Source of the DNA: a virus
DNA: 64,000 bases
Direction: 5' to 3' (one strand)
IMG/VR virus record: IMGVR_UViG_3300020057_000001
Location: 64,001-128,000 of that record
A program made the translations under genes and the position numbers. This document shows, in pieces, positions 4,268 to 64,000 of this stretch; within the stretch, counting starts at the first letter, position 1, and every line of letters starts with the position of its first letter. The notes below the pieces were generated by a model. The model saw only the letters and a list, made by a program, of their open reading frames with translations, made no database searches and had not been told where the DNA came from.

Positions 4268-4353
4268 AGGCCCCTCAAAAAGGTGTATAATCAACATTTT
4301 ATCGCAACAGGTCGTAAAATACAACTGACAAACTAAGCTTGAGGGGCAAAACA

Positions 4354-6732
4354 ATGGCCGGAACTATTAGTCACGCATCGCTCGCGTCACTTGGGTCTTT
4401 ACATAACGCACGCGTCGATCTGGTCTCAGGTGCTCCCGCTGGGTCGCCTCTTTACATTGGCCAAACTGCGTGGGACCAAGTCAACTCCCGCTTTTACATA
4501 GCGGTCGGTACCAATCCCGGAGACTGGGTGACTACTTCTATACCCGACGCGGTCTCCGTAGCTGACACCGCAACGGTTAACCTAACCCTTTCGAGCGGTT
4601 TATTATCGGCGGACGTCATAGAGGCAGCACTTTCGCTGCTCTCGACGCAGATCAGCGACTTTACGGCTGCGGTTACCACTAACAGTGACGTCGCGCAGAA
4701 CACCGCCAAGCGTCACGAGAGCTTGACCATTCCTGCGTCTCACACCCCGACTAGTATTGTCAACGGGTTAGAGCTTAATTTCATCAACCAAACTTTAAAG
4801 CTTTCTCAAAACCTTTCGACCGCAGGTTCTCCCATTTTTCAGGGCGCTACTCTCTCTACCCTGAGTACAGGTTTACTCCATGCAAACTCTTCGGGTGTTT
4901 TGTCCTCCTCTTTAGGAGTAAATGCGGATATTTCAGCTTCCGCTGCAATTGCAGGGACTAAGATTGCGCCCAACTTTGGATCTCAGACCGTACAAACCTC
5001 GGGACCCATTTTAGGGCAGAACTTTAACATCCAAGCGGGACAGACAGTCGTTACGCTTTTCCCAGACGCATTAGCCATTCAAATCGGTCAGTCAGCCACC
5101 CCCAAGGTTATTCAAATTGGTGGACCAAACGACATTGTGCAGATTCAGGGCAGCGCAATTATTAACCAAACCACAAACACATCGTCGAGAGACTCGACCG
5201 TGGTGATCAACCAGGGCGGCCTTGCGGGGTCAAGCGGGCAGGCAGGGCTTTACATTGAAGAAGCTGCGGTTGCTCTACTCCCAGCCACTACGAGCAATTG
5301 GCAGTCCGCCAATATTGTCAGAATGGCGATGGCTTCTACAGGAGCTATCACCGTAGGTAGCTTGGTAAATGTGCTAGGATTTAGCAACGCCCAAAACAAC
5401 GGGACTTTTCCTGTGACGTCCGTCTCAGCAAACGTCTTCATTGAGATTGACAATGCTCTGAGAACCGACGCTGCTTTAGATGAAGCCAGTGCGTCTGCCA
5501 CCGTGACCAACCCAGATTCAGCTAAAGGCTACGCCCGCATCTCGGCTGATAGAGCCTCTTGGGAATTCCAACCTTCTGGAGTTTCCGGACAGTTCATTTT
5601 TACCCCTGGCGCTTCTACTTTTACGTTTAACCAAGGCGTAAACTCCGCAGACGCCGTGTCTTTTTCTTCTCTGGCTCTCACAGGCGCGGGTACGGCTCTC
5701 TCTGTTACCAACAACTCGAGTCTGCTAGGCGACGTTGTGCTCGGGGTCGATAACACTAAAACGCTAGTCGTAAACTCGACAATTGCTTCCAATCTGTCTT
5801 TGGGCACGGGCTACAATATTACGCTATCTAACACGGGTCGGCTCGACGCACCTTTGGATCTCAATCTAGGCACCGTGAACGCCACGGTCGTAAATTTAGG
5901 GAGCGCTGGTACGGCTGTCACTCTGGCAAGTTTGACGGACGGTGTAGTGCTGTCTAGCAGCGGGGGTGTTCTTTCTTCTGGGCAAATCGTAAACACTAAC
6001 GTATCTAACTTAGCAGCAATAGCTTACTCAAAGCTTGCTCTTTCTAACTCTCTAGTCAATGCAGATATTAATGCTTCAGCAGCTATCGCTTACTCTAAGC
6101 TTGCTCTTTCCAACTCTCTAGTCAATGCAGATATTAATGCTTCAGCAGCTATCGCTTACTCTAAGCTTGCTCTTTCCAACTCTCTAGTAAATGCGGACGT
6201 TGCTCCGAGTGCAGCTATTGCTTACTCCAAGCTTGCTTTAACAAACTCTCTAGTCAATGCGGATATTGATGCTTCAGCAGCAATAGCTTACTCAAAGCTT
6301 GCTCTTTCCAACTCTCTAGTCAATGCAGATATTAATGCTTCAGCGGCTATAGCCGGAACAAAGATTGCACCTGACTTTGGCGCACAAACGGTAACCACGA
6401 CAGGTCTTACTCAAAGTGGCTCGTCGCGCATAACGGGCGCCGTGTACAGGTCCGTGGTTGCCACGCGGACGGCAAACTACTCTATCGCCGCAAACGACTA
6501 CGTTGTGAAGACGGATAGTACAAGCGGAACCTTTACGGTGACGCTGCCGAGTGCCGTCATAGAGGAAGGACGAGTTGTGTTTTTGAAGGACGTGTCAGAT
6601 TCTTGGGGTGTCGCACCTATTTCGATTACAGCTACCGCGGGACTAGTCGGTGGACTTTCAACGTTTGTAGGAGACGCGGACAGGCAGTCGCTTCAGTTCA
6701 TTAGTGACGGTGCGAATTGGCTTATTCTGTGA
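4354..6732 (+). CDS. Virion fibre/structural protein with 22-aa repeats
   Basis: G/S/T/A/N-rich beta-type sequence with tandem SNSLVNADINASAAIAYSKLAL repeats and a C-terminal domain ending FISDGANWLIL, typical of phage fibre proteins. ATG 4354 follows GAGGGG. Confidence 0.7.
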   Translation: MAGTISHASLASLGSLHNARVDLVSGAPAGSPLYIGQTAWDQVNSRFYIAVGTNPGDWVTTSIPDAVSVADTATVNLTLSSGLLSADVIEAALSLLSTQISDFTAAVTTNSDVAQNTAKRHESLTIPASHTPTSIVNGLELNFINQTLKLSQNLSTAGSPIFQGATLSTLSTGLLHANSSGVLSSSLGVNADISASAAIAGTKIAPNFGSQTVQTSGPILGQNFNIQAGQTVVTLFPDALAIQIGQSATPKVIQIGGPNDIVQIQGSAIINQTTNTSSRDSTVVINQGGLAGSSGQAGLYIEEAAVALLPATTSNWQSANIVRMAMASTGAITVGSLVNVLGFSNAQNNGTFPVTSVSANVFIEIDNALRTDAALDEASASATVTNPDSAKGYARISADRASWEFQPSGVSGQFIFTPGASTFTFNQGVNSADAVSFSSLALTGAGTALSVTNNSSLLGDVVLGVDNTKTLVVNSTIASNLSLGTGYNITLSNTGRLDAPLDLNLGTVNATVVNLGSAGTAVTLASLTDGVVLSSSGGVLSSGQIVNTNVSNLAAIAYSKLALSNSLVNADINASAAIAYSKLALSNSLVNADINASAAIAYSKLALSNSLVNADVAPSAAIAYSKLALTNSLVNADIDASAAIAYSKLALSNSLVNADINASAAIAGTKIAPDFGAQTVTTTGLTQSGSSRITGAVYRSVVATRTANYSIAANDYVVKTDSTSGTFTVTLPSAVIEEGRVVFLKDVSDSWGVAPISITATAGLVGGLSTFVGDADRQSLQFISDGANWLIL
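5986..6375 (+). repeat. In-frame 66-bp (22-aa) tandem repeat, about 5-6 copies
   Basis: Near-identical units TCTCTAGTCAATGCAGATATTAATGCTTCAGCAGCTATCGCTTACTCTAAGCTTGCTCTTTCCAAC. One further dispersed copy near 4915-4980. Confidence 0.95.
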
Positions 6733-38844: not shown

Positions 38845-39522
38845 TCATGCCTCGACTATAGCGAAATGTTTGTTTTGCCAATTTTTAATTTCGTCAGTGG
38901 AAAGTTTCTTGAGCCAATTTTTAGAAGCGTTGTCAAAAAAGAACCCTTCAGCTTTTGCGAAGTCTTTTTGATGAAACGAAACCAAGGCTTTAACCGTCTT
39001 TTTTGGCTGTAGAGCATCCTGTATAACACTGTCGAGGTTCGGTAGAGCGCATAAGATTTGAATCAACAAGCGCACGTCGGCTGCTGCCCTATGGAGTTTT
39101 AAAACAGGCAATCCAAGGTCAACGGCAATGTGCGAGAGTTTGCTGGCCTTCGTGCCCGTGATTCGAATGTCTTCGCGTGTGCAAAGAAAAGGGCGGTCGA
39201 TCGGCAAGCCTAGCATCTGTAGGCGAGGAGCATCAAACTTTACGTTATGGGCGACAAGGGCGTCTGCTTGAGAAGCGTAGTAAGACAGTATACAAAGACC
39301 AACGTTGAGCCATTCAGGGCTAGAGGGGATTTCTTGAAGGGCTGCGTCAGGTATACCGTTGACGTGAAAGGTCGCGTTGAGTTTGTCAGTCTTCACCAAA
39401 AAACTAAACTCAGCCAGTACTTCTTTTGTCGTCGTAGACAAAAGAGCCCCTGCCACTTCAATAACAGGGTCGTCGGCGAGGTCGAGCCCTGTAGTTTCAG
39501 TATCTAGTACAAGTAGTTTCAC
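38845..39522 (-). CDS. DEDDh 3'-5' exonuclease (DnaQ-like)
   Basis: LDTETTG, AHNVKFD, HRAAADV. Confidence 0.9.
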   Translation of the reverse strand: MKLLVLDTETTGLDLADDPVIEVAGALLSTTTKEVLAEFSFLVKTDKLNATFHVNGIPDAALQEIPSSPEWLNVGLCILSYYASQADALVAHNVKFDAPRLQMLGLPIDRPFLCTREDIRITGTKASKLSHIAVDLGLPVLKLHRAAADVRLLIQILCALPNLDSVIQDALQPKKTVKALVSFHQKDFAKAEGFFFDNASKNWLKKLSTDEIKNWQNKHFAIVEA

Positions 39523-42149
39523 CCACCACCCCCATGCCGAGCTTGCTCTTGAAAGAGCATCCGAGCTTCATTGATTTTCCCAAGGTCCGCAGTTACGGCT
39601 ATACATCCGGTAGTGGCGCACAAAATCCCAAGTTCCACACCGTTGCGAATTACAGACGTGACCGTCACGGACGAATCTGCTACACCGAGGTCCCGGAAGT
39701 CCCCGATAACAACCCCACTTTCTTCAAAGCGGACAGTTGTCGTACCCGTATCGGCTAGTGCTAGATCAAAAGTTAGCGCAGTTCCGTAATTTTCACATAA
39801 TTGTAAAAGAACGGATTTAAAAGCTTCGCTCAAACCAGCCGACATGCCCGATGCCCTTGCAGCGTAGATGTAAGACATGCCTGCGCCAGGGACGACGCCG
39901 TTGCGGGAAGCTGCTTGAACGGCTTGAATAGCATCGTCAACTCGGTCGGCTCTTTCTTGAATGCTTGCAGAGTGCCCGCCACCGACAGAAATTGTAACCA
40001 GACCGCCCGTGAGTTCGGCGTTGCGTGCCGAAATAACATCGGCACCTTGGCGTGTGGGCGCAAAGCTAACAGCTTTTTCGTTCTGCGCAGCTCGCTCGGG
40101 AATCGTGTGCTTTGCCGCACGACCTGTGAGGATAGTCTTAAAGGGCTGCACCTCAATAGAGGTACAAGTACCTAGGTCGTCGTAGGTGGACGTTCGGTAA
40201 CTAGCGCCATCTTGCAGGGTGGCGCACGTGATAGCGGAAATGTCCAAGAGTCTCTGATACTCGACGTTCATTTCCGGGCTTAAAGCGAGTTTCGATAAAA
40301 AGATGCGTCCTGTGTGCTTTCCGTGAGCGAGGTTGCGGTTCTGCACCATTACCTCGTTGGCAAGACCTTCACCGATATCTTTTGCGAAACAGACCAAGTG
40401 TTGCTTGAATTGCCCATTGCTCTGGGCAGCAATACTGTTAACAGCTTGTGTGATCTGCTCCATGCTCTCAAGGTTCCCATTGTAGATAAAGACTGCGGGA
40501 CCTTGAAGAACAAAAGAGTCGTTCTCGGCAGATTTTTCTGACACTGAAATAGCTAAGCTCTTGTGGTACTCGTACCCACGACCTGCACAGTAACCGTTTT
40601 GGCGTACAATTTTGTAGAGTTCATTCTGCAAAGCATCTTTTGCGATAGTGACCGTCCCATAGGCACCTACGTTGTCTAGGGCTTCTAGCGCAGCGGTGGC
40701 GATGTCGGAATCGCCATTAGAAGAAGTCATAGCTACGTGGTGTAAAAGGCTCGCATCTCGGATAGCAAGTTCCTCTACCTTGAGAATGGCTGCTTCTGCT
40801 TCTCGTTTAAATTGACGGGCGAGAGCTTGAGGATTTTTAGAAGAACTGTTGAGTATAGCGCTGGATACTGCCGCCGCAAGCACGAGAGTGGACGTCGTGT
40901 TGTGGGTGACAATGAAATTGTCTGTGATGTAAAGATTGTCAGGGTTACTGACTTTTATACACATCATAGGGGTTGTAACCCCTGTGGCTGTAATTTTGTC
41001 TAGCCTATTTCCGTACTTAAAGTTTTCTAAATGTGTGACGCTCCAGATCGGCGGCGGGAAGTAGAGGTTACCTTCTTCGTGTTTCTGTAGCGACATCTTT
41101 ACAGGTTTACCTAAACTGAGGCAAAGGTCGGTAAAGTCTTGAGCCAGCTCTTTACTGACGCTGCTAAACGCAACCACGCTGCTGTTAGTCGTGTAAGCGT
41201 CAGCGTCTGTTAAACCTTGAAATAATTTTTCACGATGATTCGCAGTTGTGTAGAGGTATGATTTAGGGATAAATTGTGCGCCTAGCAATCCTATAGACGC
41301 AAGAATTTGTTGCATGGTCTTACCGTCGGTCGAACGTCCCTGTATGCTTACGCGAAATGAAGAATCACTTACTACGTAGGTAGAAGAGAGGTTAAACCCT
41401 TCGGGAAGAACCAACTTAGCGATAATGTGCTCTTTTGGCTTACTCAAAGAAATTTCAACAGATCCCGTACCACGAAGTGAGACATCGCCAAGTAAGACAC
41501 CCACGAGGTATGGGTCGAGAGGCATCTCTGCCTCATTGTTGCAGAATTGGACGTGAGTGAGAGGCGAGTAGTATCGTTTTTGGGTCTCTCCTTCGTTGTT
41601 AGCAATTATATAATCTTTGGCTAAATCACCCGTTGTTTTTGTTTCTAATCGAGGGCCGGTAGTACCCGCGTTTGTAACAGTCCAGAGGTGGTCGGCGCAG
41701 CATTCCACCTCGCGGTTGTCACTGAACAGCAGTTTGTAAATCTCTCGCTCGCCTTTAGGGAACACCCCTAAGACGGTTTGAATGGTTCCGTTTGTCCCAC
41801 AGATTCCCATGCCTACTGTGACGTCCCGCATCTCAATGAAGCCTTTAGGTGTCAGCACTTTAGAGTACAGAGGCTGAGGGCCGTCGCCTGCATCTAATAC
41901 TGTCTTGGCAGAAGACTGGTTGCAGAAGTAATGAATGGCGTGCTCTATCGGGTCGTTGAATTCTAATGCCTTTAAGACAGTAATACCGTCCTTGGTGTAA
42001 GTGGCACAAAAATCACCGAGCGGGTCACGCTTTTCAATAATTGCGGGTTTGCCGGAAGGTCCGAGGGTGGACCCCACCGCTTGAGCGATCTTCGAGAGAG
42101 CTTCTACGGCTTTGCGTGAAGCGTCCTGTATTTCTAAAGTTTTTGTCAT
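39519..42149 (-). CDS. groEL: GroEL-like chaperonin interrupted by an intein (about 549 aa after splicing)
   Basis: STLGPSG, TKDGITV, AGDG|intein|TTS, ERADRVDDAI..GVVPGAG, Gly tail. Start moved to ATG 42149. Confidence 0.9.
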   Translation of the reverse strand: MTKTLEIQDASRKAVEALSKIAQAVGSTLGPSGKPAIIEKRDPLGDFCATYTKDGITVLKALEFNDPIEHAIHYFCNQSSAKTVLDAGDGPQPLYSKVLTPKGFIEMRDVTVGMGICGTNGTIQTVLGVFPKGEREIYKLLFSDNREVECCADHLWTVTNAGTTGPRLETKTTGDLAKDYIIANNEGETQKRYYSPLTHVQFCNNEAEMPLDPYLVGVLLGDVSLRGTGSVEISLSKPKEHIIAKLVLPEGFNLSSTYVVSDSSFRVSIQGRSTDGKTMQQILASIGLLGAQFIPKSYLYTTANHREKLFQGLTDADAYTTNSSVVAFSSVSKELAQDFTDLCLSLGKPVKMSLQKHEEGNLYFPPPIWSVTHLENFKYGNRLDKITATGVTTPMMCIKVSNPDNLYITDNFIVTHNTTSTLVLAAAVSSAILNSSSKNPQALARQFKREAEAAILKVEELAIRDASLLHHVAMTSSNGDSDIATAALEALDNVGAYGTVTIAKDALQNELYKIVRQNGYCAGRGYEYHKSLAISVSEKSAENDSFVLQGPAVFIYNGNLESMEQITQAVNSIAAQSNGQFKQHLVCFAKDIGEGLANEVMVQNRNLAHGKHTGRIFLSKLALSPEMNVEYQRLLDISAITCATLQDGASYRTSTYDDLGTCTSIEVQPFKTILTGRAAKHTIPERAAQNEKAVSFAPTRQGADVISARNAELTGGLVTISVGGGHSASIQERADRVDDAIQAVQAASRNGVVPGAGMSYIYAARASGMSAGLSEAFKSVLLQLCENYGTALTFDLALADTGTTTVRFEESGVVIGDFRDLGVADSSVTVTSVIRNGVELGILCATTGCIAVTADLGKINEARMLFQEQARHGGGG
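40899..41879 (-). mobile_element. Class 3 intein (327 aa) with a degenerate LAGLIDADG homing endonuclease
   Basis: Begins PQPLYSKVLTP (Pro1). Block B CCADHLW (Trp), block F MMCIKV (Cys), block G VTHN|T (Thr) give the WCT triad. LAGLIDADG remnants LVGVLLGDV and LFQGLTDADA. Confidence 0.9.
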
Positions 42150-42817
42150 GGCAAATCCTCGTATTTTTTGAGTAGTGTAGCGGCTTCGTCCATGCTCTTG
42201 GCGAAACACTCTACCTGTACTTTAAATGTTTTGGCAAAAGATAACAGGTTGACGTCAGGTGGGTTACCCCAGACTAATTTACGGTGGCGTAACGGATGCA
42301 CAAGGCAGAGCGTTAAAAGCCCGAGGTCCCAAGCAAACTGCCCATAGGAAGTTTTGGCAACAGGTTCTTTCACGTCGTGAGAATACGGTGTTAGATCCCA
42401 TACGTTCCCTGCGTTGGTTGAGTCTTCTCGGTACCATGAGGTTTGGTCCCAGGTCGGAGGCGTCGTGCCTTTGGAAAGAATGACTGCGGCCTCGCCTAGT
42501 TTGGATAGTGTGCCTCTTTTCGAGGTCGTCTGGTAGTGCATAAACACGACGTCACCAAACGTAAGCTGCGGGTACGCCGAAAGGTCTGCGGTATGCGACA
42601 TCGCTTTTACAAGGTCCATCTTGCTATGTCTAAAGGTCAGTAAGGTGACACTATCACTAGAGGTGCCTTGGTTCAAACGAGTGAGGAGGGTTTTTGCTTC
42701 TTCTTGTTTGACGGGCATGTTGAACACGTAGACGTCGGCACTCGGCATAGGGGCTTCCCACACACTGTCAGTGCTGACGACTTGAATTGAGATAAGATTG
42801 TCTTCAGACTTCATCAT
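42146..42817 (-). CDS. Hypothetical protein, possibly a degenerate DNA-methyltransferase-like fold
   Basis: GNVWDL...FAWDL resembles the C-terminal part of beta-class N4/N6 MTases, but no DPPY or FxGxG motif is present. Confidence 0.4.
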   Translation of the reverse strand: MMKSEDNLISIQVVSTDSVWEAPMPSADVYVFNMPVKQEEAKTLLTRLNQGTSSDSVTLLTFRHSKMDLVKAMSHTADLSAYPQLTFGDVVFMHYQTTSKRGTLSKLGEAAVILSKGTTPPTWDQTSWYREDSTNAGNVWDLTPYSHDVKEPVAKTSYGQFAWDLGLLTLCLVHPLRHRKLVWGNPPDVNLLSFAKTFKVQVECFAKSMDEAATLLKKYEDLP

Positions 42818-54975: not shown

Positions 54976-57900
54976 GTGACCGTTGTGCAACCCACTCGCT
55001 TGTCTTCGCTGGTCCGTAAATTAAAAAATAAAGTGGTAGCGCGCAGGGAAAATACTTTACATCCTGACGTTCATGCACAACTCTGGTCGGAACCAGAGGC
55101 CGAAACGATGCAAAAGTCAGACAAGCTCCCACACTACCAAAAGTTTATGGGCACTCACCCTAAAGCTCAAGAAACAGCAAGCTGGGTGGATGATAATATA
55201 AGCCACCGAGGGTTGGCTGAATTTGGCATGAGGCAAGCCAAGACAAGACCAGAAGGGTTAGGCAACGAAGAAAAGTCTCAACTAAAGCACTTTAACGATT
55301 CCCTACACATGCCGGAAGTGAAAAAGGGCGCAGGAGAGTTGACGAAAGATCACACTTGGGAAAGTGGGATTGAAAAGTTAAACGCACATGAAGCGGCGTA
55401 CACTGAAAAACATAAAAAAATAGCACCCTCGCTTGTGCCTTCGGAAGGCGAAAAACTCCTTGACTTAGGCGAAGGCGTCGGCCTTTATAATCTACCTCTT
55501 GATGGTGCGCGCAAGAACAAACATGAAGCAGTGGGCATGGGTCACTGCGCTACTGCACTTGAGGGTGGTGATCTTTGGTCGATCCGCAAAGACCATGGCA
55601 ACGGGATGGTGGAACCTATGGTTACCCTTTCTCACGCGGATGGGTACGTAGGTGAAGTGAAGGGAAAACACAACTGGAAGCCTTCAGAAAAACACCACTC
55701 AGCTATTTTGAAAGTTTTGGCAAGTGACTTAGTAAAGGGTTTTGTTGGTGGCGGTTATGCGCCAGAAAGCAATTTTAGCTTAAATGACGTAAAACCTGAA
55801 TGGAAACAGAAGCTCACATCCGTTAAGCCTACGCTCATGCAAAAACCTTACATAGAAACGTTACCGCTACCATTTGCGGACGGGTATAACCACGAGCCCG
55901 ACGTCCCGACAATTGCAAAAATCAAAGACCCTGCAAAAATGCTTCGCCTCGCCCAAGCAAGCGAGCCCAAATCCGCTGTTCACAATTACTCAGCCAAAAA
56001 CCCCAACATTTCTCCCGAAGTTGCACAGCACTTAGCGCAAACAAACAACCCAGGCTCTAGGGTTCACGAAAACTTAGCCAAAAACCCCAACCTCTCTCCA
56101 GAAGTTGCACATCATTTAGTCCAAACAAACAAGCCCAGATCCGGCGTTCACGTTCTCTTAGCCGAAAACCCCAACCTTTCTCCAGAAGCTGTGAAGCACT
56201 TAGCCCAAACAAACGAGCCCGATTCGCCCGTTCACGGAATCTTAGCCGAAAACCCCAACCTTTCTCCCGAACTTGCGCAGCACTTAGCCCAAACAAACGA
56301 GCCCGATTACCCCATTCACAACAGCTTAGCCAAAAACCCCAACCTCTCTCCAGAAGTTGCACATCATTTAGCCCAAACAAACAAGCCCGATTCCGACGTT
56401 CACAAATACTTAGCCAAAAACCCCAACCTCCCACCAGAAGTTGCACAACATTTAGCCCAAACAAACAAGCCAGGGGCCTTCGTTCACGTACTCTTAGCCA
56501 AAAACCCCAACCTCTCTCCAGAACTCGCACATCATTTAGCCCAAACAGACAAGCCAGGGGCCTTCGTTCACAACAGCTTAGCTCAAAACCCCAACCTCTC
56601 TCCAGAACTCGCACATCATTTAGCCCAAACAAACAAGCCCGATTCCTCCGTTCACCTTGCCTTAGCCAAAAACCCCAACCTTTCTCCCGAACTTGCACAT
56701 CATTTAGCCCAAGCAAGCGGACCCGCATCCGGCGTTCACCTTGCCTTAGCCAAAAACCCCAACCTTTCTCCAGAACTCGCACATCATTTAGCCCAAGCAA
56801 ACGAGCCCGTATCCTCCGTTCACCTTCTCTTAGCCAAAAACCCCAACCTTTCTCCAGAAGCTGCGCAGCATTTAGCCCAAACAAACAAGCCCGATTCCTC
56901 CATTCACGCATACTTAGCTGAAAACCCCAACCTTTCTCCAGAAGCTGCGCAGCATTTAGCCCAAACAAACAAGCCCGATTCCGACGTTCACAACAGCTTA
57001 GCCCAAAACCCCAAATACGCACATCTTGCGTTATCCGCACCACGCCCTCAACAAGCTACGCACATCCAAAAACTTATCGGCATTCTCAACGACGAAAACG
57101 CTGATAGAGGTCTTCAACGTCAAGCCGCACAAGAAATTAAAACAAGAAGAGAAGAAGAACTGCAACACCGACTGTCTGACAAAGGCGATATGCAAGACCT
57201 CTTAAATTTAGCGGAATCTTCAGACGACGACGTGTCTGAAAAAGCCACTAAAGAAATTCAGAGAAGAAACCTACAAAAATCAATGCGTAAGTCCGAGAGC
57301 AAGGCCAAAACAAGTGTAGTAGCTAAGTTAAAAGCCAAAATAACTACAAAACCAAAAGACGCTCCGGTTCCTCCCCACGAGGTCATTGATTCAGGCATTT
57401 TGACGCCTTTCCATCAAACGTTAATTATGCACGGATCAAAAGTCTCATTAAAAGAAGCACGCGTCGGGCATTCAGAAGTAAACCCTAGCAGTAATAAGGA
57501 GCGGGCGGTGAATAAGGATCTTAAAAAGGGCGATATCGTTGGTGGAAACCCTGAAGCAAAAGAAAAACTAGCACTCACGAACGAAAACAGGGTGTCTTCG
57601 AGCCCCGCCGCGATTGGTGCATATAAAAAACCATTTCAATTTACACAGCGCGACGGGGCTAGTGGACGGCGCGTTAACGTACAAACCAGCAGTGGTAAAA
57701 ATATCATGTCACATTTTGACCATGCGGCGCATCAAGACTTCAGCTCTGCGGATCACAAAGAAGCCGCCGTTGCCCACCAGAGACACCTTATTGAGTTAAA
57801 GGAGGGTCGACCGCACCCAGACCTTCTAAAGTTTCATCAAGACCAGTACAAAAACCATTGGCAGCAACACCAAGATCTAAAGAACCGGAGTAACACGATG

Positions 57901-58125
57901 TTAGGTAAGTCCTTAAAGGCAAAGTTTCTCAAAAAGGCTTCTCTTGACAAATCACAGACTTTAAGCCATTCTTCAGCGCCTAAGCTTTCCAAGTCCTCCA
58001 CGCTGGGACAGAGAATCAAGGCTGCTCTGGCAAGTCCTGAGATGCCGACCTTTCCACGGAACCACCACTCCGAAGTGCCTCACCATGACCCCCGAGACGT
58101 AAAATATTTTGATATCGAGGAATAA
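54976..58125 (+). CDS. Polyvalent protein: PcfJ-like domain + 28-aa helical (LRV/HEAT-like) repeats + further xxKS-separated modules
   Basis: EAVGMGHC..LWSIR..EPMVT..GEVKGKHN (PcfJ-like); 12 AKNPNLSPE..HLAQ repeats. Confidence 0.7.
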   Translation: MTVVQPTRLSSLVRKLKNKVVARRENTLHPDVHAQLWSEPEAETMQKSDKLPHYQKFMGTHPKAQETASWVDDNISHRGLAEFGMRQAKTRPEGLGNEEKSQLKHFNDSLHMPEVKKGAGELTKDHTWESGIEKLNAHEAAYTEKHKKIAPSLVPSEGEKLLDLGEGVGLYNLPLDGARKNKHEAVGMGHCATALEGGDLWSIRKDHGNGMVEPMVTLSHADGYVGEVKGKHNWKPSEKHHSAILKVLASDLVKGFVGGGYAPESNFSLNDVKPEWKQKLTSVKPTLMQKPYIETLPLPFADGYNHEPDVPTIAKIKDPAKMLRLAQASEPKSAVHNYSAKNPNISPEVAQHLAQTNNPGSRVHENLAKNPNLSPEVAHHLVQTNKPRSGVHVLLAENPNLSPEAVKHLAQTNEPDSPVHGILAENPNLSPELAQHLAQTNEPDYPIHNSLAKNPNLSPEVAHHLAQTNKPDSDVHKYLAKNPNLPPEVAQHLAQTNKPGAFVHVLLAKNPNLSPELAHHLAQTDKPGAFVHNSLAQNPNLSPELAHHLAQTNKPDSSVHLALAKNPNLSPELAHHLAQASGPASGVHLALAKNPNLSPELAHHLAQANEPVSSVHLLLAKNPNLSPEAAQHLAQTNKPDSSIHAYLAENPNLSPEAAQHLAQTNKPDSDVHNSLAQNPKYAHLALSAPRPQQATHIQKLIGILNDENADRGLQRQAAQEIKTRREEELQHRLSDKGDMQDLLNLAESSDDDVSEKATKEIQRRNLQKSMRKSESKAKTSVVAKLKAKITTKPKDAPVPPHEVIDSGILTPFHQTLIMHGSKVSLKEARVGHSEVNPSSNKERAVNKDLKKGDIVGGNPEAKEKLALTNENRVSSSPAAIGAYKKPFQFTQRDGASGRRVNVQTSSGKNIMSHFDHAAHQDFSSADHKEAAVAHQRHLIELKEGRPHPDLLKFHQDQYKNHWQQHQDLKNRSNTMLGKSLKAKFLKKASLDKSQTLSHSSAPKLSKSSTLGQRIKAALASPEMPTFPRNHHSEVPHHDPRDVKYFDIEE
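55993..57000 (+). repeat. 12 x 84-bp in-frame tandem repeat
   Basis: Consensus AKNPNLSPExAxHLAQTNxPxxxVHxxL. Confidence 0.95.
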
Positions 58126-58127
58126 AA

Positions 58128-60635
58128 GTGGAAAAGTTAGCAAAAGCTGGGTTTACACAACTGAAACAGATGTTTGCGGAAACCAACGATCACGACCACG
58201 TCGTAAAATGGGCTGCTGACAGCATCAAACCTAACGACATGCAGTCTTGGTACTTGCGCAACTATAAGCAAAATCCGGCTATTCACACAAAGGCCAACCA
58301 AGAAAAAATCGCACATTTTTCTGGAATGCATGGTCTTTCTGAGGATATCAAAAACGTTAAATTAGATAAAAACGACACGTTAGAATCAGGTTTAGCGAAA
58401 TACGATCAGGCTGAAAAAAAATGGCAATCCAGTAGTGGGAGCCGTTTTACTGCTCCAGAAGGTAAGAAGATCGTTGACCTTGGTAACAACATGGGTTGGT
58501 ACAATCTCAAAAAGCCTACGTCAGATGAAGAGGCTAGCTGCATGGGACATTGTGGAAATTATGGAAATCCTCACGAAAAAGACCAAATTTTTTCTTTGCG
58601 AAAAGAAGTAAAAGTTGGAAACAAGACCTATCACGAGCCTATGTCAACTGCCATTTACAATAAAGGTTGGCTGGGGGAAATGAAAGGTCGAGCAAATTCT
58701 CGTCCAGGTGCGAAGTTTCATGAACACTATGCGGCACTGTTGAAACACCCTAAAATCAAAGGGTTAATCGGGGCGGGGCATAAACCACACGAAAATTTTC
58801 ATTTCGACGACCTAAGCCCAGAACTTCAACAGCAAGTCAAAACAGCAAACCCAAAGATGGTGGACTTAAGAAGTAATGCTTGGGACACAGCAACAAAACA
58901 TAAAGCCACAGCGTCCGTTCCGAAAATTGAAAAGTATCAGAGCACTGTCAAAGACATTCACCGATCGACTGAACTGAAAGATCAATTGGATCAGGGACAT
59001 CCAATGGACGCTCTTGACCCAAACGACTTAAGACTAGTCGTTGATCATCCAGCTTTTCAAAAAGGGCACCTTGACAAATTAGTAAAGGGTCTAGCGGATC
59101 AAAAAGGCATCAAGGATGTGTATTCAAAACTCCAAGCATATGGCGCTATTGAGAGATCCCCACATTTAAACGACCAGCACATCGACCACTTAATCGATTC
59201 AGATGAAACGGCTAACACAGCTCAATTATTAAGAAAAAAACTCAACCAAAGCCACGTAGACAACATCGTTCAAAAAGCTCCTGCCATGGCAGCAGAACAG
59301 TTAAAAGACCACCGTCTGTTAAACCAAAGCCACATAACCCATATTGTTAAAGAATACCCCGGTAGAGCAGCCCTATATTTAAACAACCACCCCCTCTTAA
59401 ACGCAACCCACATAGACCAAATTGCTCAAAAAGCACCCCACGCAGCAGCCGTACATTTAAAAGACCACCCCCTTCTCAACGCAAGCCACATAGACCACAT
59501 TGTCCGACAAGAACCCAGAGAAGCAGCGAAACATTTAAAAGACCACCCCCTCTTAAACGCAAGCCACATAGACCGTATTGCGCAAGACGAACCCTTCGCC
59601 GCAGCAAGACATTTAACCGACCACCCCGTCTTCAACGCAAGCCACATAGACCGTATTGTCCAACAAGACCCCGCTTCCGCCGCCGCAAATTTAAAAGACC
59701 ACCCCCTCTTTAACCAAAGCCACCTAGACCAAATTGTTCAAGGCAACTCCGGCGCAGCAGCCGTACATTTAAAAGACCACCCCCTTCTCAACGCAAGCCA
59801 CATAGACCGTATTGTTCAAAAAGAACCCGGCACAGCAGCCTACCATTTAAACAACCACCCCCTCTTCAACGCAAGCCACATAACCCAGCTTGCCCAAAAA
59901 GACCCCAACGCCGCAGCCCTATATTTAAATAATCACCGCCTCTTCAACCAAAGCCATATAGACCACATTGTTCAAGAGCACCCCAACGCAGCGCTAGAGT
60001 ATTTAAGAAAACACCCCCTTCTCAACGTAAGCCACATAACCCATATTGCCCAAAAAGAACCCGGCGCAGCCGCCCAATATTTAAACGACCACCCTCTCTT
60101 CAACGCAAGCCATATAGACCACATTGTTCAACAAGACCCCTATAGAGCAGCTGGATTTTTAAACGACCACCCCCTCTTTAACCAAAGCCACATAACCCAT
60201 ATTGTTCAAGAAGCACCCCACATAGCAGCCGAATATTTAAAAGACCACCCCCTTCTCAACCAAAGCCATATAGACCACATGGTTCAAGAAGCACCCTTCA
60301 GAGCAGCCGCATATTTAAAAGACCACCCCCTTCTCAACCAAAGCCATATAGACCACATTGTTCAAGAAGCACCCCACATAGCAGCCGAATATTTAAAAGA
60401 CCACCCCCTCTTTGCAGAAGCTATGAGACGCGCTAAAGCTAAAAAAGTACAGAAACCCGAAGCAACTGCTCCGCTAACCAAATCTGAGAAAAACTTAAAG
60501 AGCGTCGTTCAAAAATTGAAACGTAAGGCTACACCACAAACACCAGACACAGCGTTCGAAGCCCAAACCGCTAGGAAAAACCTTCTCAGTAGTATAGCAT
60601 CCAAACTGAAGAAGATACCCGCTGGCCCAACTTGA
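58128..60635 (+). CDS. PcfJ-like domain + 26-aa helical repeat protein (paralog A)
   Basis: EASCMGHCGN..IFSLRK..EPMST..GEMKGRAN; 15 repeats of (L/F)NQSHIDHIVQxxPxxAAxxLKDHPL. Confidence 0.75.
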   Translation: MEKLAKAGFTQLKQMFAETNDHDHVVKWAADSIKPNDMQSWYLRNYKQNPAIHTKANQEKIAHFSGMHGLSEDIKNVKLDKNDTLESGLAKYDQAEKKWQSSSGSRFTAPEGKKIVDLGNNMGWYNLKKPTSDEEASCMGHCGNYGNPHEKDQIFSLRKEVKVGNKTYHEPMSTAIYNKGWLGEMKGRANSRPGAKFHEHYAALLKHPKIKGLIGAGHKPHENFHFDDLSPELQQQVKTANPKMVDLRSNAWDTATKHKATASVPKIEKYQSTVKDIHRSTELKDQLDQGHPMDALDPNDLRLVVDHPAFQKGHLDKLVKGLADQKGIKDVYSKLQAYGAIERSPHLNDQHIDHLIDSDETANTAQLLRKKLNQSHVDNIVQKAPAMAAEQLKDHRLLNQSHITHIVKEYPGRAALYLNNHPLLNATHIDQIAQKAPHAAAVHLKDHPLLNASHIDHIVRQEPREAAKHLKDHPLLNASHIDRIAQDEPFAAARHLTDHPVFNASHIDRIVQQDPASAAANLKDHPLFNQSHLDQIVQGNSGAAAVHLKDHPLLNASHIDRIVQKEPGTAAYHLNNHPLFNASHITQLAQKDPNAAALYLNNHRLFNQSHIDHIVQEHPNAALEYLRKHPLLNVSHITHIAQKEPGAAAQYLNDHPLFNASHIDHIVQQDPYRAAGFLNDHPLFNQSHITHIVQEAPHIAAEYLKDHPLLNQSHIDHMVQEAPFRAAAYLKDHPLLNQSHIDHIVQEAPHIAAEYLKDHPLFAEAMRRAKAKKVQKPEATAPLTKSEKNLKSVVQKLKRKATPQTPDTAFEAQTARKNLLSSIASKLKKIPAGPT
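59241..60410 (+). repeat. 15 x 78-bp in-frame tandem repeat
   Basis: Counted from the translation; 15 x 78 = 1170 bp fits exactly. Confidence 0.95.
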
Positions 60636-60691
60636 ATAGGCTACTCAACCTTGACCCGAGACGTAAAATATTTTGATATCGAGGAGTAAAA

Positions 60692-63600
60692 GTGGAAAAG
60701 TTAGCAAAAGCTGGGTTTACACAACTGAAACAGATGTTTGCAGATTCGGACGATCACGACCACGTCGTTAAGTGGGCTGCTGACAGCATCAAACCAAACG
60801 ACATGCAGTCTTGGTACTTGCGAAATTACAAACAAAATCCGGCTATTCACACAACGGAAAACCAAGAAAAAATTGCACATTTTTCGGGAATGCATGGTCT
60901 TTCCGAGGATATCAAAAACGTTAAGCTGGACAAGAACGACACGTTAGAATCAGGTTTAGCGAAATACGATCAGGCCGAGAAAAAATGGCAATCCAGTAGT
61001 GGGAGCCGTTTCACGGCTCCAGAAGGTAAGAAGATCGTTGAGCTTGGGAACGGTATGGGTTGGTACGATTTAAAGAAGCCGGTGTCAAGTGAAGAGGCTA
61101 ACTGCATGGGCCATTGTGGAAATTCGGGAAATCCTCACGAAAAAGACCAAATTTTTTCTTTGCGAAAAGAAGTAAAAGTCGGAAATAAAACGTACCACGA
61201 GCCCATGTCAACTGCTATTTACAATAAGGGTTGGTTAGGCGAAATGAAAGGTCGAGCCAATTCTCGTCCAGGTGAAAAGTTTCATGAACACTACGCGGCA
61301 CTCCTAAAGCACCCTAAAATCAAAGGGTTAATCGGTGCGGGGCATAAACCACAAGAAAATTTTCATTTCGACGACTTGAGCCCAGAACTTCAACAACAAG
61401 TCAAAACAGCAAATCCGGCAATGGTGGACTTAAGAAGTAATGCTTGGGACACAGCAACAAAATACAAAGCCACGGCGTCCGTTCCTAAAATTAAAAAATA
61501 TCAGCATACTGTCAAAGACATTCACCGATCCACGGAACTGAAAGATCAATTGGATCAGGGACATCCAATGGACGCGCTCAAGTCAAGCGACTTAAGACTA
61601 GTCGTTGACCATCCAGCTTTTCAAAAAGGACACCTTGACAAATTAGTAAAAGGTATAGCTAACCAAAAAGGCATCAAGGATGTGTATTCAAAACTCCAAG
61701 CCTACGGTGCTATTGAAAGATCTCCGCATTTAAACGACCAACACATCGACCACTTAATCGATTCAGATGAGATCGCTAACACAGCGCAACTATTAAGAAA
61801 AAAACTCAACCAAAGCCACGTAGATAGCATTGTGCAAAAAGCTCCCGTCATGGCAGCAAAACAGTTAAAAGACCACCGTCTGTTAAACCAAAGCCACGTA
61901 GACCACATTGTTCAAAAAGCCCCTGGCATGGCAGCGGAATATTTAAACGACCACCCCCTCTTCAACGCAAGCCACATAGACCACATTGCTCAAAAATACC
62001 CCTCCAAAGCAGCTGGATATTTAAACGACCACCCCCTCTTCAACCAAAGCCACCTAGACCATATTGTTCAAGAGTACCCCAACGCAGCCGAATATTTAAA
62101 AGACCACCCCCTATTCAACCAAAGCCACGTAGATAGCATTGTGCAAACAGACCCCGGCATGGCAGCAGAACAGTTAAAAGACCACCGTCTCTTTAATCAA
62201 AGTCATATAGACCGTATTGCGCAAGAATCACCCTACTCAGCAGCAGAACAGTTAAAAGACCACCCCCTTCTCAACCAAAGCCACATAGACCACATTGTTC
62301 AAGAAAACCCCCGCGTAGCCGCCCAATATTTAAATAAGCACCTCCTCCTCAACCAAAGCCACATAGACCACATTGTTCAACAAGACCCCCGCTTAGCAGC
62401 CTCCCGTTTAAAAGACCACCCCCTTTTCAACCAAAGCCACATAACACATATTGTTCAACAAGAACCCAGCGAAGCAGCGGAACAGTTAAAAGACCACCCC
62501 CTTCTCAACCAAAGCCACATAGACCACATTGTTCAAGAAAACCCCCGCGTAGCCGCCCAATATTTAAATAAGCACCTCCTCCTCAACCAAAGCCACATAG
62601 ACCATATTGTCCAAAAAGAACCCAGCAAAGCAGCCTACCGTTTAAAAGACCACCCACTCTTCAACGCAAGCCACGTAGATCACATTGTCCAAAACGTCCC
62701 CTATTCCGCAGTCGAGGCTTTACAAAACCACCCCCTCCTCAACCAAAGCCACATAGACCACCTTGTTCAACAAGTACCCCACATAGCAGCCGAATATTTA
62801 AAAGACCACCCCCTCTTTGCAGAAGCTGTGAGACGAGCCGAAGCTAAAAAAGTACAGAAATCCGAAGCAACTGCTCCGCTAACCAAATCTGAGAAAAACT
62901 TAAAAAGCGTCGTTCAAAAATTGAAACGTAAGGCTACACCGCAAAAGCCTTGGAACCCAGAATCATACGGGTATGACGACGGCTCCGACGATGTTTACAA
63001 TGACATCGACGACGCGGTAGATCATCACAACCTATCCGCAAACCGTCGTATGGAAAGATATCAGGAAATAAATCCGGAACACACAGAAAAAATGATGGAC
63101 CCGAGTGAGTTAATTCCCTCTGCGCACCTACCTCAAACGTCAGGTTGGTTAAAGCAGCACCCGGAGCAAGAGTGGATCAATCGCTTGAAAGAGCAATTTC
63201 CAGATCGAGATTTCGCTCACACTTTAGACAAAAAGAATAAAAAAGCGTTATCGCCAGCCATCACCATCAACGGTGAACTTGCGGACGGTTATGGACGAGC
63301 CCACCTTGCGCATGCCCTTGGTGAGCACTTACCGACGTATGATTATAAAAGAAAATTACAAAAATCCATCGTAGGCGTACCGCAAATGAAAAAATCCAAC
63401 GACCTTGCCCAAGACCTTAAGAAACAGGGCGCAAAAGACCCCAAAGCCATACTTCAAACGCAAAAAGAAAAAGAAGACCTAAAGAAAGGCGACGTAGTAA
63501 CTTTAGGCGCAAAAATCAAAGCAAAGATCAAAGCAAAAAAAGAAAGCTCTTCCACGGAAGCGTCAACGGTAAAACGGCTTTCCCCGGAAGAGCAATTGGC

Positions 63601-64000
63601 CAATAGAAAAAAACATCAGGCTGAGGCAAACAGCTCCGCAATGACCGACGTCTCTTCTCATAGGAGAGGAGCCTACGCCCCGCAGAATAGTGCAGCGGAA
63701 CGCCTGAAGGAACGTGCTGAGACAGTTAAAAAGCTAAAAGACCAAAGCGACCATAAAGACCGCCTCGTTCACATGATGGGCGAACAACACGGACCCGTAG
63801 GCGCTTCCGCAGCAAGCCATGTTTTTGAAGCAAACGCAGATCGTTATTCGTTATCGTTAAATCGTGACGACACCCGTGAAAAGGAACGCGTCGCAGGAAA
63901 AGCGAAGACCTATATTACGCATTACGGACAGACGCCCGAAGGGCACCACGTGTTTCTTCACCAGAACGCAGGATTAGCCCGTCTTATGGCAGTGCCTTCA
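60692..64000 (+). CDS. PcfJ-like + 26-aa repeat protein with an extra ParB-like module (paralog B; runs off the right edge)
   Basis: Not in the track (no stop in the window). GTG 60692 after GAGGAG. N-terminus near-identical to 58128. 13 repeats, then SPAITINGELADGYGRAHLAHALG (ParB-like) and LQKS, MKKS, LKKG motifs. Confidence 0.8.
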   Translation, partial: MEKLAKAGFTQLKQMFADSDDHDHVVKWAADSIKPNDMQSWYLRNYKQNPAIHTTENQEKIAHFSGMHGLSEDIKNVKLDKNDTLESGLAKYDQAEKKWQSSSGSRFTAPEGKKIVELGNGMGWYDLKKPVSSEEANCMGHCGNSGNPHEKDQIFSLRKEVKVGNKTYHEPMSTAIYNKGWLGEMKGRANSRPGEKFHEHYAALLKHPKIKGLIGAGHKPQENFHFDDLSPELQQQVKTANPAMVDLRSNAWDTATKYKATASVPKIKKYQHTVKDIHRSTELKDQLDQGHPMDALKSSDLRLVVDHPAFQKGHLDKLVKGIANQKGIKDVYSKLQAYGAIERSPHLNDQHIDHLIDSDEIANTAQLLRKKLNQSHVDSIVQKAPVMAAKQLKDHRLLNQSHVDHIVQKAPGMAAEYLNDHPLFNASHIDHIAQKYPSKAAGYLNDHPLFNQSHLDHIVQEYPNAAEYLKDHPLFNQSHVDSIVQTDPGMAAEQLKDHRLFNQSHIDRIAQESPYSAAEQLKDHPLLNQSHIDHIVQENPRVAAQYLNKHLLLNQSHIDHIVQQDPRLAASRLKDHPLFNQSHITHIVQQEPSEAAEQLKDHPLLNQSHIDHIVQENPRVAAQYLNKHLLLNQSHIDHIVQKEPSKAAYRLKDHPLFNASHVDHIVQNVPYSAVEALQNHPLLNQSHIDHLVQQVPHIAAEYLKDHPLFAEAVRRAEAKKVQKSEATAPLTKSEKNLKSVVQKLKRKATPQKPWNPESYGYDDGSDDVYNDIDDAVDHHNLSANRRMERYQEINPEHTEKMMDPSELIPSAHLPQTSGWLKQHPEQEWINRLKEQFPDRDFAHTLDKKNKKALSPAITINGELADGYGRAHLAHALGEHLPTYDYKRKLQKSIVGVPQMKKSNDLAQDLKKQGAKDPKAILQTQKEKEDLKKGDVVTLGAKIKAKIKAKKESSSTEASTVKRLSPEEQLANRKKHQAEANSSAMTDVSSHRRGAYAPQNSAAERLKERAETVKKLKDQSDHKDRLVHMMGEQHGPVGASAASHVFEANADRYSLSLNRDDTREKERVAGKAKTYITHYGQTPEGHHVFLHQNAGLARLMAVPS
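61805..62815 (+). repeat. 13 x 78-bp in-frame tandem repeat (one unit lacks a codon)
   Basis: Manual translation; units 7 and 10 are identical. Confidence 0.93.

What the first reader, a model, noticed from the sequence alone, without database searches (positions are those of the whole stretch)
58089..62945. Twin genes with a constant frame and a hypervariable helical-repeat array: a natural binder library?
Seen: 58128.. and 60692.. are a recent tandem duplication that includes the ~35-bp upstream promoter/RBS. The first ~370 codons and the C-cap (HIAAEYLKDHPLFAEA..TAPLTKSEKNLKSVVQKLKRKATPQ) are nearly identical. The arrays between them differ in number (15 vs 13 units) and in content. Within the 26-aa unit the scaffold is fixed, while positions 12-13, 15-16 and 19-20 change almost every time (A: KA-AM-EQ, EY-GR-LY, QE-RE-KH, DE-FA-RH, QD-YR-GF; B: KY-SK-GY, ES-YS-EQ, EN-RV-QY, QD-RL-SR, NV-YS-EA). 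Known: this spacing maps to one helical face, as in ankyrin/HEAT/LRR binders. Inference: the phage shuffles 78-bp units by recombination to diversify a binding surface fused to a PcfJ-like domain, perhaps to track variable host defence or regulatory proteins.
Basis: partly seen in the sequence, partly recalled or inferred. Interest (0 to 1): 0.85.

Follow-up and report, generated by a model that had tools for sequence, protein, structure and literature searches.

The report
Phage gene family with variable-faced helical repeats
A 160-kb phage carries five neighbouring genes that join a conserved, probably enzymatic head domain to a long helical-repeat rod. Six positions per 26-residue repeat change faster than silent sites, which suggests a set of evolving binding surfaces, but the target and function are unknown.

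Summary
The sequence features are real, but the description needs three corrections.

- **Not twins.** Genes A and B belong to a tandem cluster: four close paralogues (A, B, C, D with 15, 13, 15 and 18 units) plus a distant one (g1) with 28-aa LRV repeats. B is 1578 aa and runs off the window.
- **Not recent.** N-domain dS between paralogues is 0.40-0.50, with dN/dS about 0.07. One 100%-identical A/C block looks like gene conversion or assembly collapse.
- **Variable positions confirmed.** They are unit positions 11, 12, 14, 15, 18 and 19. Their dN/dS is 1.6-2.2, against 0.38 for the scaffold.

AlphaFold2 predicts a two-helix solenoid at pLDDT 91.5. Positions 14, 15, 18 and 19 lie on one face of helix 2, the same spacing as the variable positions of the alphaRep HEAT-like scaffold.

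Exact 125-141-nt tracts sit at non-equivalent array positions, so units are exchanged by recombination. The genome has no reverse transcriptase and the cluster has no inversion sites.

The head domain is a remote PcfJ relative with an invariant His-Cys. The head-plus-HEAT/LRV architecture is common in phage metagenomes (1585 clusters), but five tandem copies is unusual.

Binding, target and enzyme activity are inferred. Read mapping was unavailable, so copy number and unit order are unverified. This scan had already flagged the same stretch from another window.

The parts
54976..58125 (+). g1: distant paralogue (1049 aa) with the same head domain (27% identity), 12-13 LRV-type 28-aa repeats (TRF 12.7 copies; 11 canonical plus one degenerate in my parse) and a long C-terminal region
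   Evidence: tblastn. Pfam LRV_2 E=8e-33. TRF period 84, 12.7 copies. Its variable positions are analogous: after the conserved Pro and after the conserved His.
58087..58127 (+). Conserved element of about 40 nt before gene A, including the GAGGA Shine-Dalgarno. It overlaps the last codons and stop of g1.
   Evidence: The same element lies before B, C and D with 0-2 changes, while the coding DNA differs by about 10%.
58128..59243 (+). Gene A head region (codons 1-372): helical N-part, beta-rich core (about 104-256) with invariant H141, C142, K186, N190, then capping helices
   Evidence: AF2 pLDDT 89.5. Invariant columns in a 51-sequence alignment. 1585 clusters in the family. Remote PcfJ signal.
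59244..60413 (+). Gene A array: 15 units of 26 aa (78 bp)
   Evidence: TRF, unit parse, AF2 pLDDT 91.5 two-helix solenoid
60414..60635 (+). Gene A C-cap helix, Lys-rich linker and short conserved tail
60653..60691 (+). Copy of the conserved upstream element before gene B. It is non-coding here and is a remnant of the g1 3' end.
60692..61807 (+). Gene B head region (codons 1-372)
   Evidence: 93.5% aa identity to A. dS 0.47, dN 0.037.
61808..62818 (+). Gene B array: 13 units, one of them 25 aa
62819..62945 (+). Gene B C-cap and linker shared with A
62946..64000 (+). Start of the B-specific insertion of about 740 aa. It runs to window coordinate 65428 and ends in the tail shared with A. No known domain. 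It contains an internal duplication of a Lys-rich motif.

Best explanation
The region is part of a lineage-specific tandem expansion (g1, A, B, C, D) of a widespread but uncharacterised phage protein family. Each protein has two modules.

(i) A conserved head domain under strong purifying selection. It is a remote PcfJ relative with an invariant His-Cys pair plus Lys and Asn, so it is probably an enzyme.

(ii) A capped alpha-solenoid of 26-residue two-helix units of the HEAT/LRV kind.

In every unit the core-facing residues are fixed. Six residues evolve faster than silent sites: the end of helix 1, the turn, and one face of helix 2. Homologous recombination between units and between paralogues (unequal crossing-over and gene conversion) changes unit number and moves tracts around. 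Ordinary point mutation followed by selection supplies the new side chains.

The most likely role is that each array is a recognition surface of different specificity. It would bring the common head domain to different macromolecular targets in the infected cell.

Shown: the anatomy, the selection pattern, the tract exchange and the family distribution. Inferred: binding, the kind of target, and catalysis by the head.
For: - **Copies.** Five paralogues in tandem.
- **Variable positions.** 61 units, with entropy above 2.1 bits only at positions 11, 12, 14, 15, 18 and 19.
- **Selection, pairwise.** Nei-Gojobori gives hv dN 0.90 against dS 0.47, and scaffold dN 0.16 against dS 0.40. Bootstrap over units gives hv omega 1.94 (95% 1.5-2.6) and scaffold 0.38 (0.32-0.46).
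- **Selection, tree-based.** Counting on a tree gives hv omega 1.63 (binomial p=0.007) and scaffold 0.38.
- **Head domain.** dN/dS is about 0.07 at dS 0.40-0.50.
- **Where differences fall.** 45-51% of unit differences lie in the 23% of bases that are hv codons.
- **Structure.** AF2 array model at pLDDT 91.5: helix at unit positions 2-11, break at 12, helix at 13-19, then a loop. Positions 14, 15, 18 and 19 therefore face away from the conserved Ala16, Ala17 and Leu20.
- **Relatives.** The same variable positions recur in arrays of distant homologues P0007, P0014, P0015 and P0018, and analogous ones in g1.
- **Tract exchange.** Exact tracts of 141, 131 and 125 nt sit at non-equivalent positions: C473=D706, B569=D647, B519=B597. 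The A/C pair is 100% identical from about codon 125-138 (93-nt windows; 26-codon windows) to codon 372, then identity drops at the first unit.
- **Unit number.** It varies among relatives.
- **Family and architecture.** 1585 clusters. 37 of 158 members have 26-aa periodic arrays. 10 of 10 tested hit HEAT/LRV models.
- **Published parallels.** PcfJ-like domains precede the variable region of some DGR target genes (PMC5758913). The alphaRep variable positions 18, 19, 22, 23 and 26 on helix 2 form the binding face (PMC3754942).
Against: - No binding partner or activity is known for any member.
- Variable surface positions are a general property of solenoid repeats. They can partly reflect relaxed constraint.
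- The omega estimates rest on 78-nt units, a weak tree, non-independent pairs, near-saturated dN and possible homogenisation of silent sites by gene conversion.
- Individually only position 14 reaches p about 0.01.
- The nine most similar unit pairs show no enrichment at hv codons.
'One face' rests on secondary structure and helix geometry, not on computed surfaces.
- The contig comes from a metagenome. Exact repeats of 125-730 nt are where short-read assemblers mis-thread, and a second contig (L002) joins the same sequences in a different order.
Confidence: 0.55

Rival explanations
1. These are ordinary repeat proteins. The six positions are exposed residues under relaxed constraint, and the paralogues are redundant or merely drifting. 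The arrays serve as a spacer, scaffold or oligomerisation rod for the head domain, and their side chains do not encode different specificities.
For: All solenoid families show fixed-core and variable-surface patterns. The closest unit pairs show no excess of hv changes. Per-site significance is weak except at position 14. Arrays are identical in the two available contigs.
Against: Pooled hv dN exceeds dS by two methods, and the bootstrap interval excludes 1. Neutrality predicts about 1. The other exposed face (helix 1 positions 3, 6, 7, 10) is much less variable, so exposure alone does not explain the pattern. Five copies kept intact with strongly constrained heads argue for selection on each copy.
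Confidence: 0.25
2. The arrays bind nucleic acid rather than protein, as the HEAT-like repeats of the AlkC/AlkD DNA glycosylases do. The variable residues would tune sequence or structure preference.
For: PHROG 14131, annotated 'DNA binding protein', matches the array weakly (E=2e-7 for B). VIA-align lists AlkC and a HEAT-like glycosylase relative for the capping helices at Z 5.4-5.7.
Against: All of these scores lie in the range of generic helical-repeat matches. The PHROG name is an untested annotation. hv positions carry many Tyr, Phe, Glu and Ala rather than a basic stripe.
Confidence: 0.1
3. Copy number, unit order and the 100%-identical A/C block are partly assembly artefacts of a short-read metagenome. 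The true locus may have fewer genes or differently ordered units.
For: L002, from the same population (1 mismatch per 3 kb), links the B tail to a C/A-mosaic head, then the A array, then the B head. This is a cyclic path through the repeats. Exact repeats of 125-730 nt exist. The contig behind P0003 breaks inside B's array.
Against: The paralogues differ by about 10% in the head and about 25% in the arrays, which is enough for assemblers to separate them. The record is a single 160-kb contig with direct terminal repeats and a CheckV completeness estimate of 100%. A's whole array is reproduced exactly in L002. The hv pattern does not depend on unit order.
Confidence: 0.1

Closest known systems
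Natural HEAT-like repeat family behind the artificial alphaRep binders (PMC3754942)
   Same: Two-helix repeat solenoid with caps. The hypervariable positions sit in pairs one helical turn apart on helix 2 (alphaRep 18, 19, 22, 23, 26; here 14, 15, 18, 19 plus 11, 12) and form one continuous face. alphaRep chains appear among the structural matches to the capping helices.
   Different: The unit is 26 aa, not 31. No Pfam HEAT or LRV model hits A-D. The arrays are fused to a PcfJ-like head and occur as tandem paralogues in a phage. Binding has not been shown.
LRV / LRV_2 repeats (PF01816, PF25591), as in g1 and many family members
   Same: g1 matches LRV_2 at 8e-33. The 26-aa arrays of ten homologues hit LRV or HEAT. 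g1 units and those arrays are clearly homologous (hhalign E=1e-16). A-D units align in register with them: His-Pro against Asn-Pro, and the variable helix against the Asp-x-x-Val-Arg helix.
   Different: The A-D to LRV profile match is not significant (E=0.015, probability 3%). The A-D unit has its own signature: an invariant Asn and two invariant His.
PcfJ of Enterococcus plasmid pCF10 (PF14284)
   Same: Shared motif order Glu-Gly..His-Cys, Arg, Pro..Thr, Gly..Asn in the hhalign alignment. 3 of 51 family members hit the Pfam model. The best structural and language-model neighbours are clusters in which some members carry PcfJ.
   Different: The Pfam model does not hit A-D or any frame of this genome. 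PcfJ itself has no known function, so the relation explains little about mechanism.
DGR target proteins with a PcfJ-like domain ahead of the variable region (PMC5758913)
   Same: A PcfJ-like domain joined to a diversified C-terminal ligand-binding module.
   Different: The genome has no reverse transcriptase and no template/variable repeat pair. Diversity here comes from ordinary mutation, selection and homologous recombination among repeats.
Tandem repeat-protein gene expansions in viruses ('genomic accordions', such as the ankyrin arrays noted elsewhere in this phage by finding e1-5667532)
   Same: Lineage-specific tandem paralogues of a repeat protein with a fixed scaffold and a variable face, and gene conversion among the copies.
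   Different: A different repeat type, and each copy carries a large conserved head domain, so the copies are not bare binders.

Membership tests
PcfJ (PF14284) | Match to the Pfam model above its gathering score | tested here: not met
   No hit for A, B or g1 at E<=0.1. No hit in any frame of the genome at E<=10.
PcfJ (PF14284) | Remote homology: shared motifs, fold and intermediate sequences | tested here: inconclusive
   3 of 51 homologues hit PcfJ, best E=2.4e-4. hhalign against pCF10 PcfJ aligns the His-Cys, Arg, Pro..Thr and Gly..Asn motifs at E=0.027. The best Atlas structural match has TM 0.75 by target over 165 residues, to a viral cluster in which 21% of members carry PcfJ. 25 of 30 named language-model hits are clusters in which a minority of members (21-25% in the listed ones) carry PcfJ.
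HEAT / LRV helical repeats | Match of the repeat to the Pfam HEAT, LRV or LRV_2 models | tested here: not met
   A and B have no hit. g1 does: LRV_2 at 8e-33.
HEAT / LRV helical repeats | Two antiparallel helices per unit stacked into a solenoid | tested here: met
   AF2 pLDDT 91.5, with 15 regular helix-helix-loop units. PDB neighbours are armadillo, importin-alpha, Sel1 and designed helical repeats, all with weak scores.
HEAT / LRV helical repeats | Profile-level homology of the A-D unit to LRV-type units of family members | tested here: inconclusive
   hhalign E=0.015, probability 3%, in register over 59 columns.
Diversity-generating retroelement target | A reverse transcriptase and a template repeat nearby | tested here: not met
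   No RVT_1 match in the 160-kb genome. Variation is between units, not between a template and a variable copy.
Shufflon or invertase-driven variation | Inverted recombination sites flanking the segments | tested here: not met
   Only weak, AT-rich inverted pairs (77% complementary) in the 18-kb cluster.
GNAT / MYST / HAT1-like acetyltransferase fold (head core) | Structural superposition on the acetyltransferase core | tested here: inconclusive
   HAT1, MYST, ESCO1 and GNAT chains recur in three searches, but weakly: Foldseek E about 0.01 with TM 0.2-0.3, VIA Z 4.7-5.6 over 100-139 residues, Atlas TM 0.3-0.4. No cofactor motif was checked.
Positively selected binding surface | dN/dS above 1 confined to a contiguous surface | tested here: met
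   hv omega 1.6-2.2 against scaffold 0.38. Contiguity is inferred from helix geometry only.

The most novel reading that the evidence does not exclude
The family would be a new class of phage effectors. A PcfJ-like catalytic head with an acetyltransferase-like fold and a His-Cys active site would be aimed at host proteins by an evolvable solenoid. This phage would keep five differently aimed copies and make new specificities by swapping repeat tracts between them. That would be a recombination-based counterpart of DGR-diversified PcfJ proteins, used to keep pace with variable host defence or surface-remodelling proteins.
Probability: 0.2. Interest if true: 0.85.

Novelty: new variant of a known kind. 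Interest (0 to 1): 0.6.

Why it matters
If the arrays are specificity modules, this common but unstudied phage family would show how phages retarget one enzyme to many host proteins using repeat recombination instead of a retroelement. It has more than 1500 sequence clusters, including jumbo phages.

It would also supply a compact natural 26-residue helical scaffold, with known variable positions, for binder engineering. Finally, it would give the PcfJ domain, found on conjugative plasmids beside anti-CRISPR genes, its first functional context.

If the arrays are not specificity modules, this is one more example of the usual fixed-core, variable-surface pattern of repeat proteins.

Tried and rejected
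- **Read mapping.** Polymorphism and assembly correctness are therefore untested.
- **Close phage relatives.** Megablast of 20 kb of the window against 50,697 phage records found nothing. tblastn of the head found only Salicola phage SCTP-2 at 28%. A single-protein scan of IMG/VR found nothing. The profile scan did work.
- **Solved structures.** Sequence searches of the PDB with the array and with the head profile found nothing at E<=1.
- **Fold searches.** Foldseek against the PDB gave nothing at E<=0.001 for either model.
- **Other diversification mechanisms.** DGR was rejected because there is no reverse transcriptase. Shufflon-type inversion was rejected because there are no inverted sites.
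- **Promoter.** No sigma-70-type promoter lies at the conserved upstream element.
- **B insertion and g1 C-terminal region.** Pfam found nothing.
- **Literature.** A search for 'PcfJ' was swamped by C. elegans pCFJ plasmids. The polyvalent-protein paper PMC5512222 does not mention PcfJ, HEAT or LRV.
- **Surface calculation.** Model coordinates are not exposed to scripts, so no solvent-accessibility calculation was possible.
Full report
**What is in the sequence.**
The window is bases 64001-128000 of a single 160,071-bp viral contig. It has direct terminal repeats and a CheckV completeness estimate of 100%. Tail-fibre, DNA polymerase, SbcC-like and ribonucleotide reductase genes mark it as a tailed phage.

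The finding covers two GTG-start ORFs: A at 58128-60635 (835 aa), and B from 60692. Tandem Repeats Finder reports 78-bp arrays in both. About 40 nt upstream are shared, the first 370 residues are 93.5% identical, and the C-cap differs at three residues.

**Corrections to the observation.**
A tblastn of A's head against the whole genome finds four close copies in a row: A, B, C (genome 129498-131999, 833 aa) and D (132058-134772, 904 aa). It also finds a 27%-identical copy in g1 (window 54976-58125). C has 15 units and D has 18, which makes 61 canonical units in all.

- g1 carries 28-aa repeats that match Pfam LRV_2 at 8e-33.
- B is 1578 aa. After the shared C-cap it has about 740 residues with no recognisable domain, and it then ends in the same short tail as A, C and D.
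- The shared upstream element before A is the end of g1's reading frame. Before B, C and D the same 40 nt are non-coding yet differ at only 0-2 positions.

**Age and history.**
Head-domain comparisons give dS 0.40-0.50 and dN about 0.03 for five of the six pairs, so omega is about 0.07. The paralogues are therefore old, and their 'constant frame' reflects purifying selection.

A and C are an exception. They are 87-95% identical at the DNA level over roughly the first 125-138 codons, 100% identical from there to codon 372, and then fall to 94%, 81%, 82% and 74% from the first unit onward. This sharp mosaic indicates gene conversion or, less likely, assembly collapse.

Inside the arrays, only the first and last units are positional counterparts between genes. 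Mean unit-to-unit DNA identity is 75%. Even so, exact tracts of 141, 131 and 125 nt lie at non-equivalent positions (C473=D706, B569=D647, B519=B597) and cross unit borders. Units are therefore moved by homologous recombination, but not as clean 78-bp cassettes. The genome has no reverse transcriptase and the cluster has no inverted recombination sites.

**Variable positions and selection.**
Entropy exceeds 2.1 bits only at unit positions 11, 12, 14, 15, 18 and 19. Asn1, His4 and His23 are invariant, and Pro13, Ala16 and Leu20 are nearly so.

| Test | Variable (hv) codons | Scaffold codons |
|---|---|---|
| All-pairs Nei-Gojobori | dN 0.90, dS 0.47 | dN 0.16, dS 0.40 |
| Bootstrap over units, omega | 1.94 (95% 1.5-2.6) | 0.38 (0.32-0.46) |
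| Tree-based parsimony count, omega | 1.63 (binomial p=0.007) | 0.38 |

In the tree-based count, position 14 is the strongest site (omega 2.85, p=0.012). Between 45% and 51% of differences between moderately diverged units fall in the 23% of bases that are hv codons. The nine closest pairs show no enrichment, with 8 of 33 differences.

The caveats are short units, a weak tree, non-independent pairs, near-saturation and gene conversion. I read this as moderate evidence for diversifying selection, and as evidence against a fast dedicated mutator.

**Structure.**
AlphaFold2 on A residues 296-805 gives pLDDT 91.5. Every unit has a helix at positions 2-11, a one-residue break at 12, a helix at 13-19 and an eight-residue loop.

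At 100 degrees per residue, positions 14, 15, 18 and 19 span about 0-140 degrees. The conserved Pro13, Ala16, Ala17 and Leu20 span about 200-300 degrees. The variable residues are therefore on the face opposite the core, next to positions 11 and 12 at the turn.

The exposed side of helix 1 (positions 3, 6, 7, 10) is far less variable, so exposure alone does not explain the pattern. I could not obtain model coordinates. The single-surface claim is geometric inference, not a computed surface.

PDB neighbours are generic solenoids. The spacing of the variable positions equals that of the alphaRep HEAT-like scaffold, where positions 18, 19, 22, 23 and 26 of helix 2 form the binding face (PMC3754942).

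**The head domain.**
The AF2 model has pLDDT 89.5. A 51-sequence alignment has invariant His141, Cys142, Lys186, Asn190 and Pro193, which suggests catalysis.

Pfam does not hit A-D. Four lines of evidence still point to PcfJ:
- 3 of 51 homologues hit PcfJ, best E=2.4e-4.
- hhalign against pCF10 PcfJ lines up the His-Cys, Arg, Pro..Thr and Gly..Asn motifs.
- The best Atlas structural match has TM 0.75 by target, to a viral cluster in which some members carry PcfJ.
- 25 of 30 named language-model hits are clusters in which a minority of members (21-25% in the listed ones) carry PcfJ.

'PcfJ-like' is therefore reasonable as remote homology. HAT1, MYST and GNAT acetyltransferases recur as weak fold matches in three searches. 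I treat that only as a lead.

**Family and relatives.**
An exhaustive HMMER search finds 1585 clusters at E<=0.001, and a profile scan of IMG/VR confirmed 126 matching stretches (78 distinct loci kept), including jumbo phages.

- Ten of ten tested members hit HEAT, LRV, LRV_2 or DUF2336.
- The architecture is therefore common. However, only 8 of 80 loci have even two tandem copies, so five copies is exceptional.
- The closest relative, L008 (55% identity), has an A-like gene with only four units followed by a g1-like gene.
- P0007 has at least 10 units of the same type, and P0005 has at least 5 regularly spaced ones, with the same variable positions in P0007.
- A DGR survey reports PcfJ-like domains ahead of the variable region in some targets (PMC5758913). 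An Atlas cluster combines PcfJ with LRR_4. The same theme, a PcfJ head plus a variable binding module, thus appears with different diversification routes.

**Assembly caution.**
L002 is a 7.4-kb JGI contig that matches this genome with 1 mismatch per 3 kb. It joins the B tail to a head that switches C, A, C, A, then to A's array and tail, and then to the B head. It starts and ends at the same point in B's array. That is either a cyclic mis-thread through the repeats or a real rearrangement.

L002 reproduces A's array exactly, so the arrays are not visibly polymorphic between the two records.

**Verdict.**
The feature is real and more extensive than described. The best reading, at about 0.55, is a tandem family of PcfJ-like enzymes aimed by solenoid arrays. 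One face of each array is under diversifying selection, and recombination reshuffles the arrays.

The main rival is ordinary relaxed surface variation (0.25). Nucleic-acid binding (0.1) and partial misassembly (0.1) remain open. Binding, target and catalysis are untested.

Noticed in passing
window 54976-58125 (g1) and L008:12973-16815: g1 has its own 28-aa LRV array, with variable positions after the conserved Pro and after the conserved His. Its orthologue in the nearest relative lies after the A-like gene, not before it, so gene order is inverted between the two phages.
   Followed up: partly
window 62946-64000 and on to genome 129428 (L001:8945-11425): B's 740-aa insertion has no Pfam hit. 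It contains two copies of a Lys-rich motif (Lys-Gly-Asp-Val..Leu-Gly-Ala-Lys-Ile-Lys-Ala-Lys-Ile-Lys) about 400 residues apart. A similar Lys-Lys-Gly-Asp-Ile-Val motif occurs in g1's C-terminal region.
   Followed up: partly
window 60414-60500, 62819-62945, g1 about 57100-57200; P0004, P0005, L008 second gene: A Leu/Val-Gln-Lys-Ser or Leu-Thr-Lys-Ser motif follows the array in g1, in A-D and in distant homologues. Another reader of this genome proposed L-x-K-(S/A/G) as a prohead-protease cleavage code. The cluster lies just upstream of a tail-fibre-like gene and a gene with a weak major-head-protein match.
   Followed up: no
L002 (JGI 3300020596, 7373 bp): This contig is built from exact pieces of the locus joined in another order, with three A/C switches in the head region. 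It is either a mis-thread or a population rearrangement.
   Followed up: partly
window 58087-58127, 60653-60691; genome about 129459-129497 and 132019-132057: The 40-nt element before A-D is better conserved than silent sites of the genes, and no sigma-70 promoter matches there. It is possibly a translational or RNA-level control element.
   Followed up: partly
L007:15874-17984 (plasmid pCF10): The founding pcfJ gene lies directly beside a gene annotated as Cas9 inhibitor AcrIIA9 family, which is an anti-defence neighbourhood.
   Followed up: no
window 56057-57043 (-), 59426-59647 (-), 61702-61908 (-): Long antisense ORFs inside the arrays are by-products of the repeats, not genes.
   Followed up: no
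window 1862-4354 (-) and 39519-42209 (-): An 830-aa protein has a Nudix domain in a larger multidomain frame. An 896-aa ORF combines a GroEL match with an inserted segment that hits terminase/primase-type PHROGs. Another reader interprets the latter as an intein.
   Followed up: no
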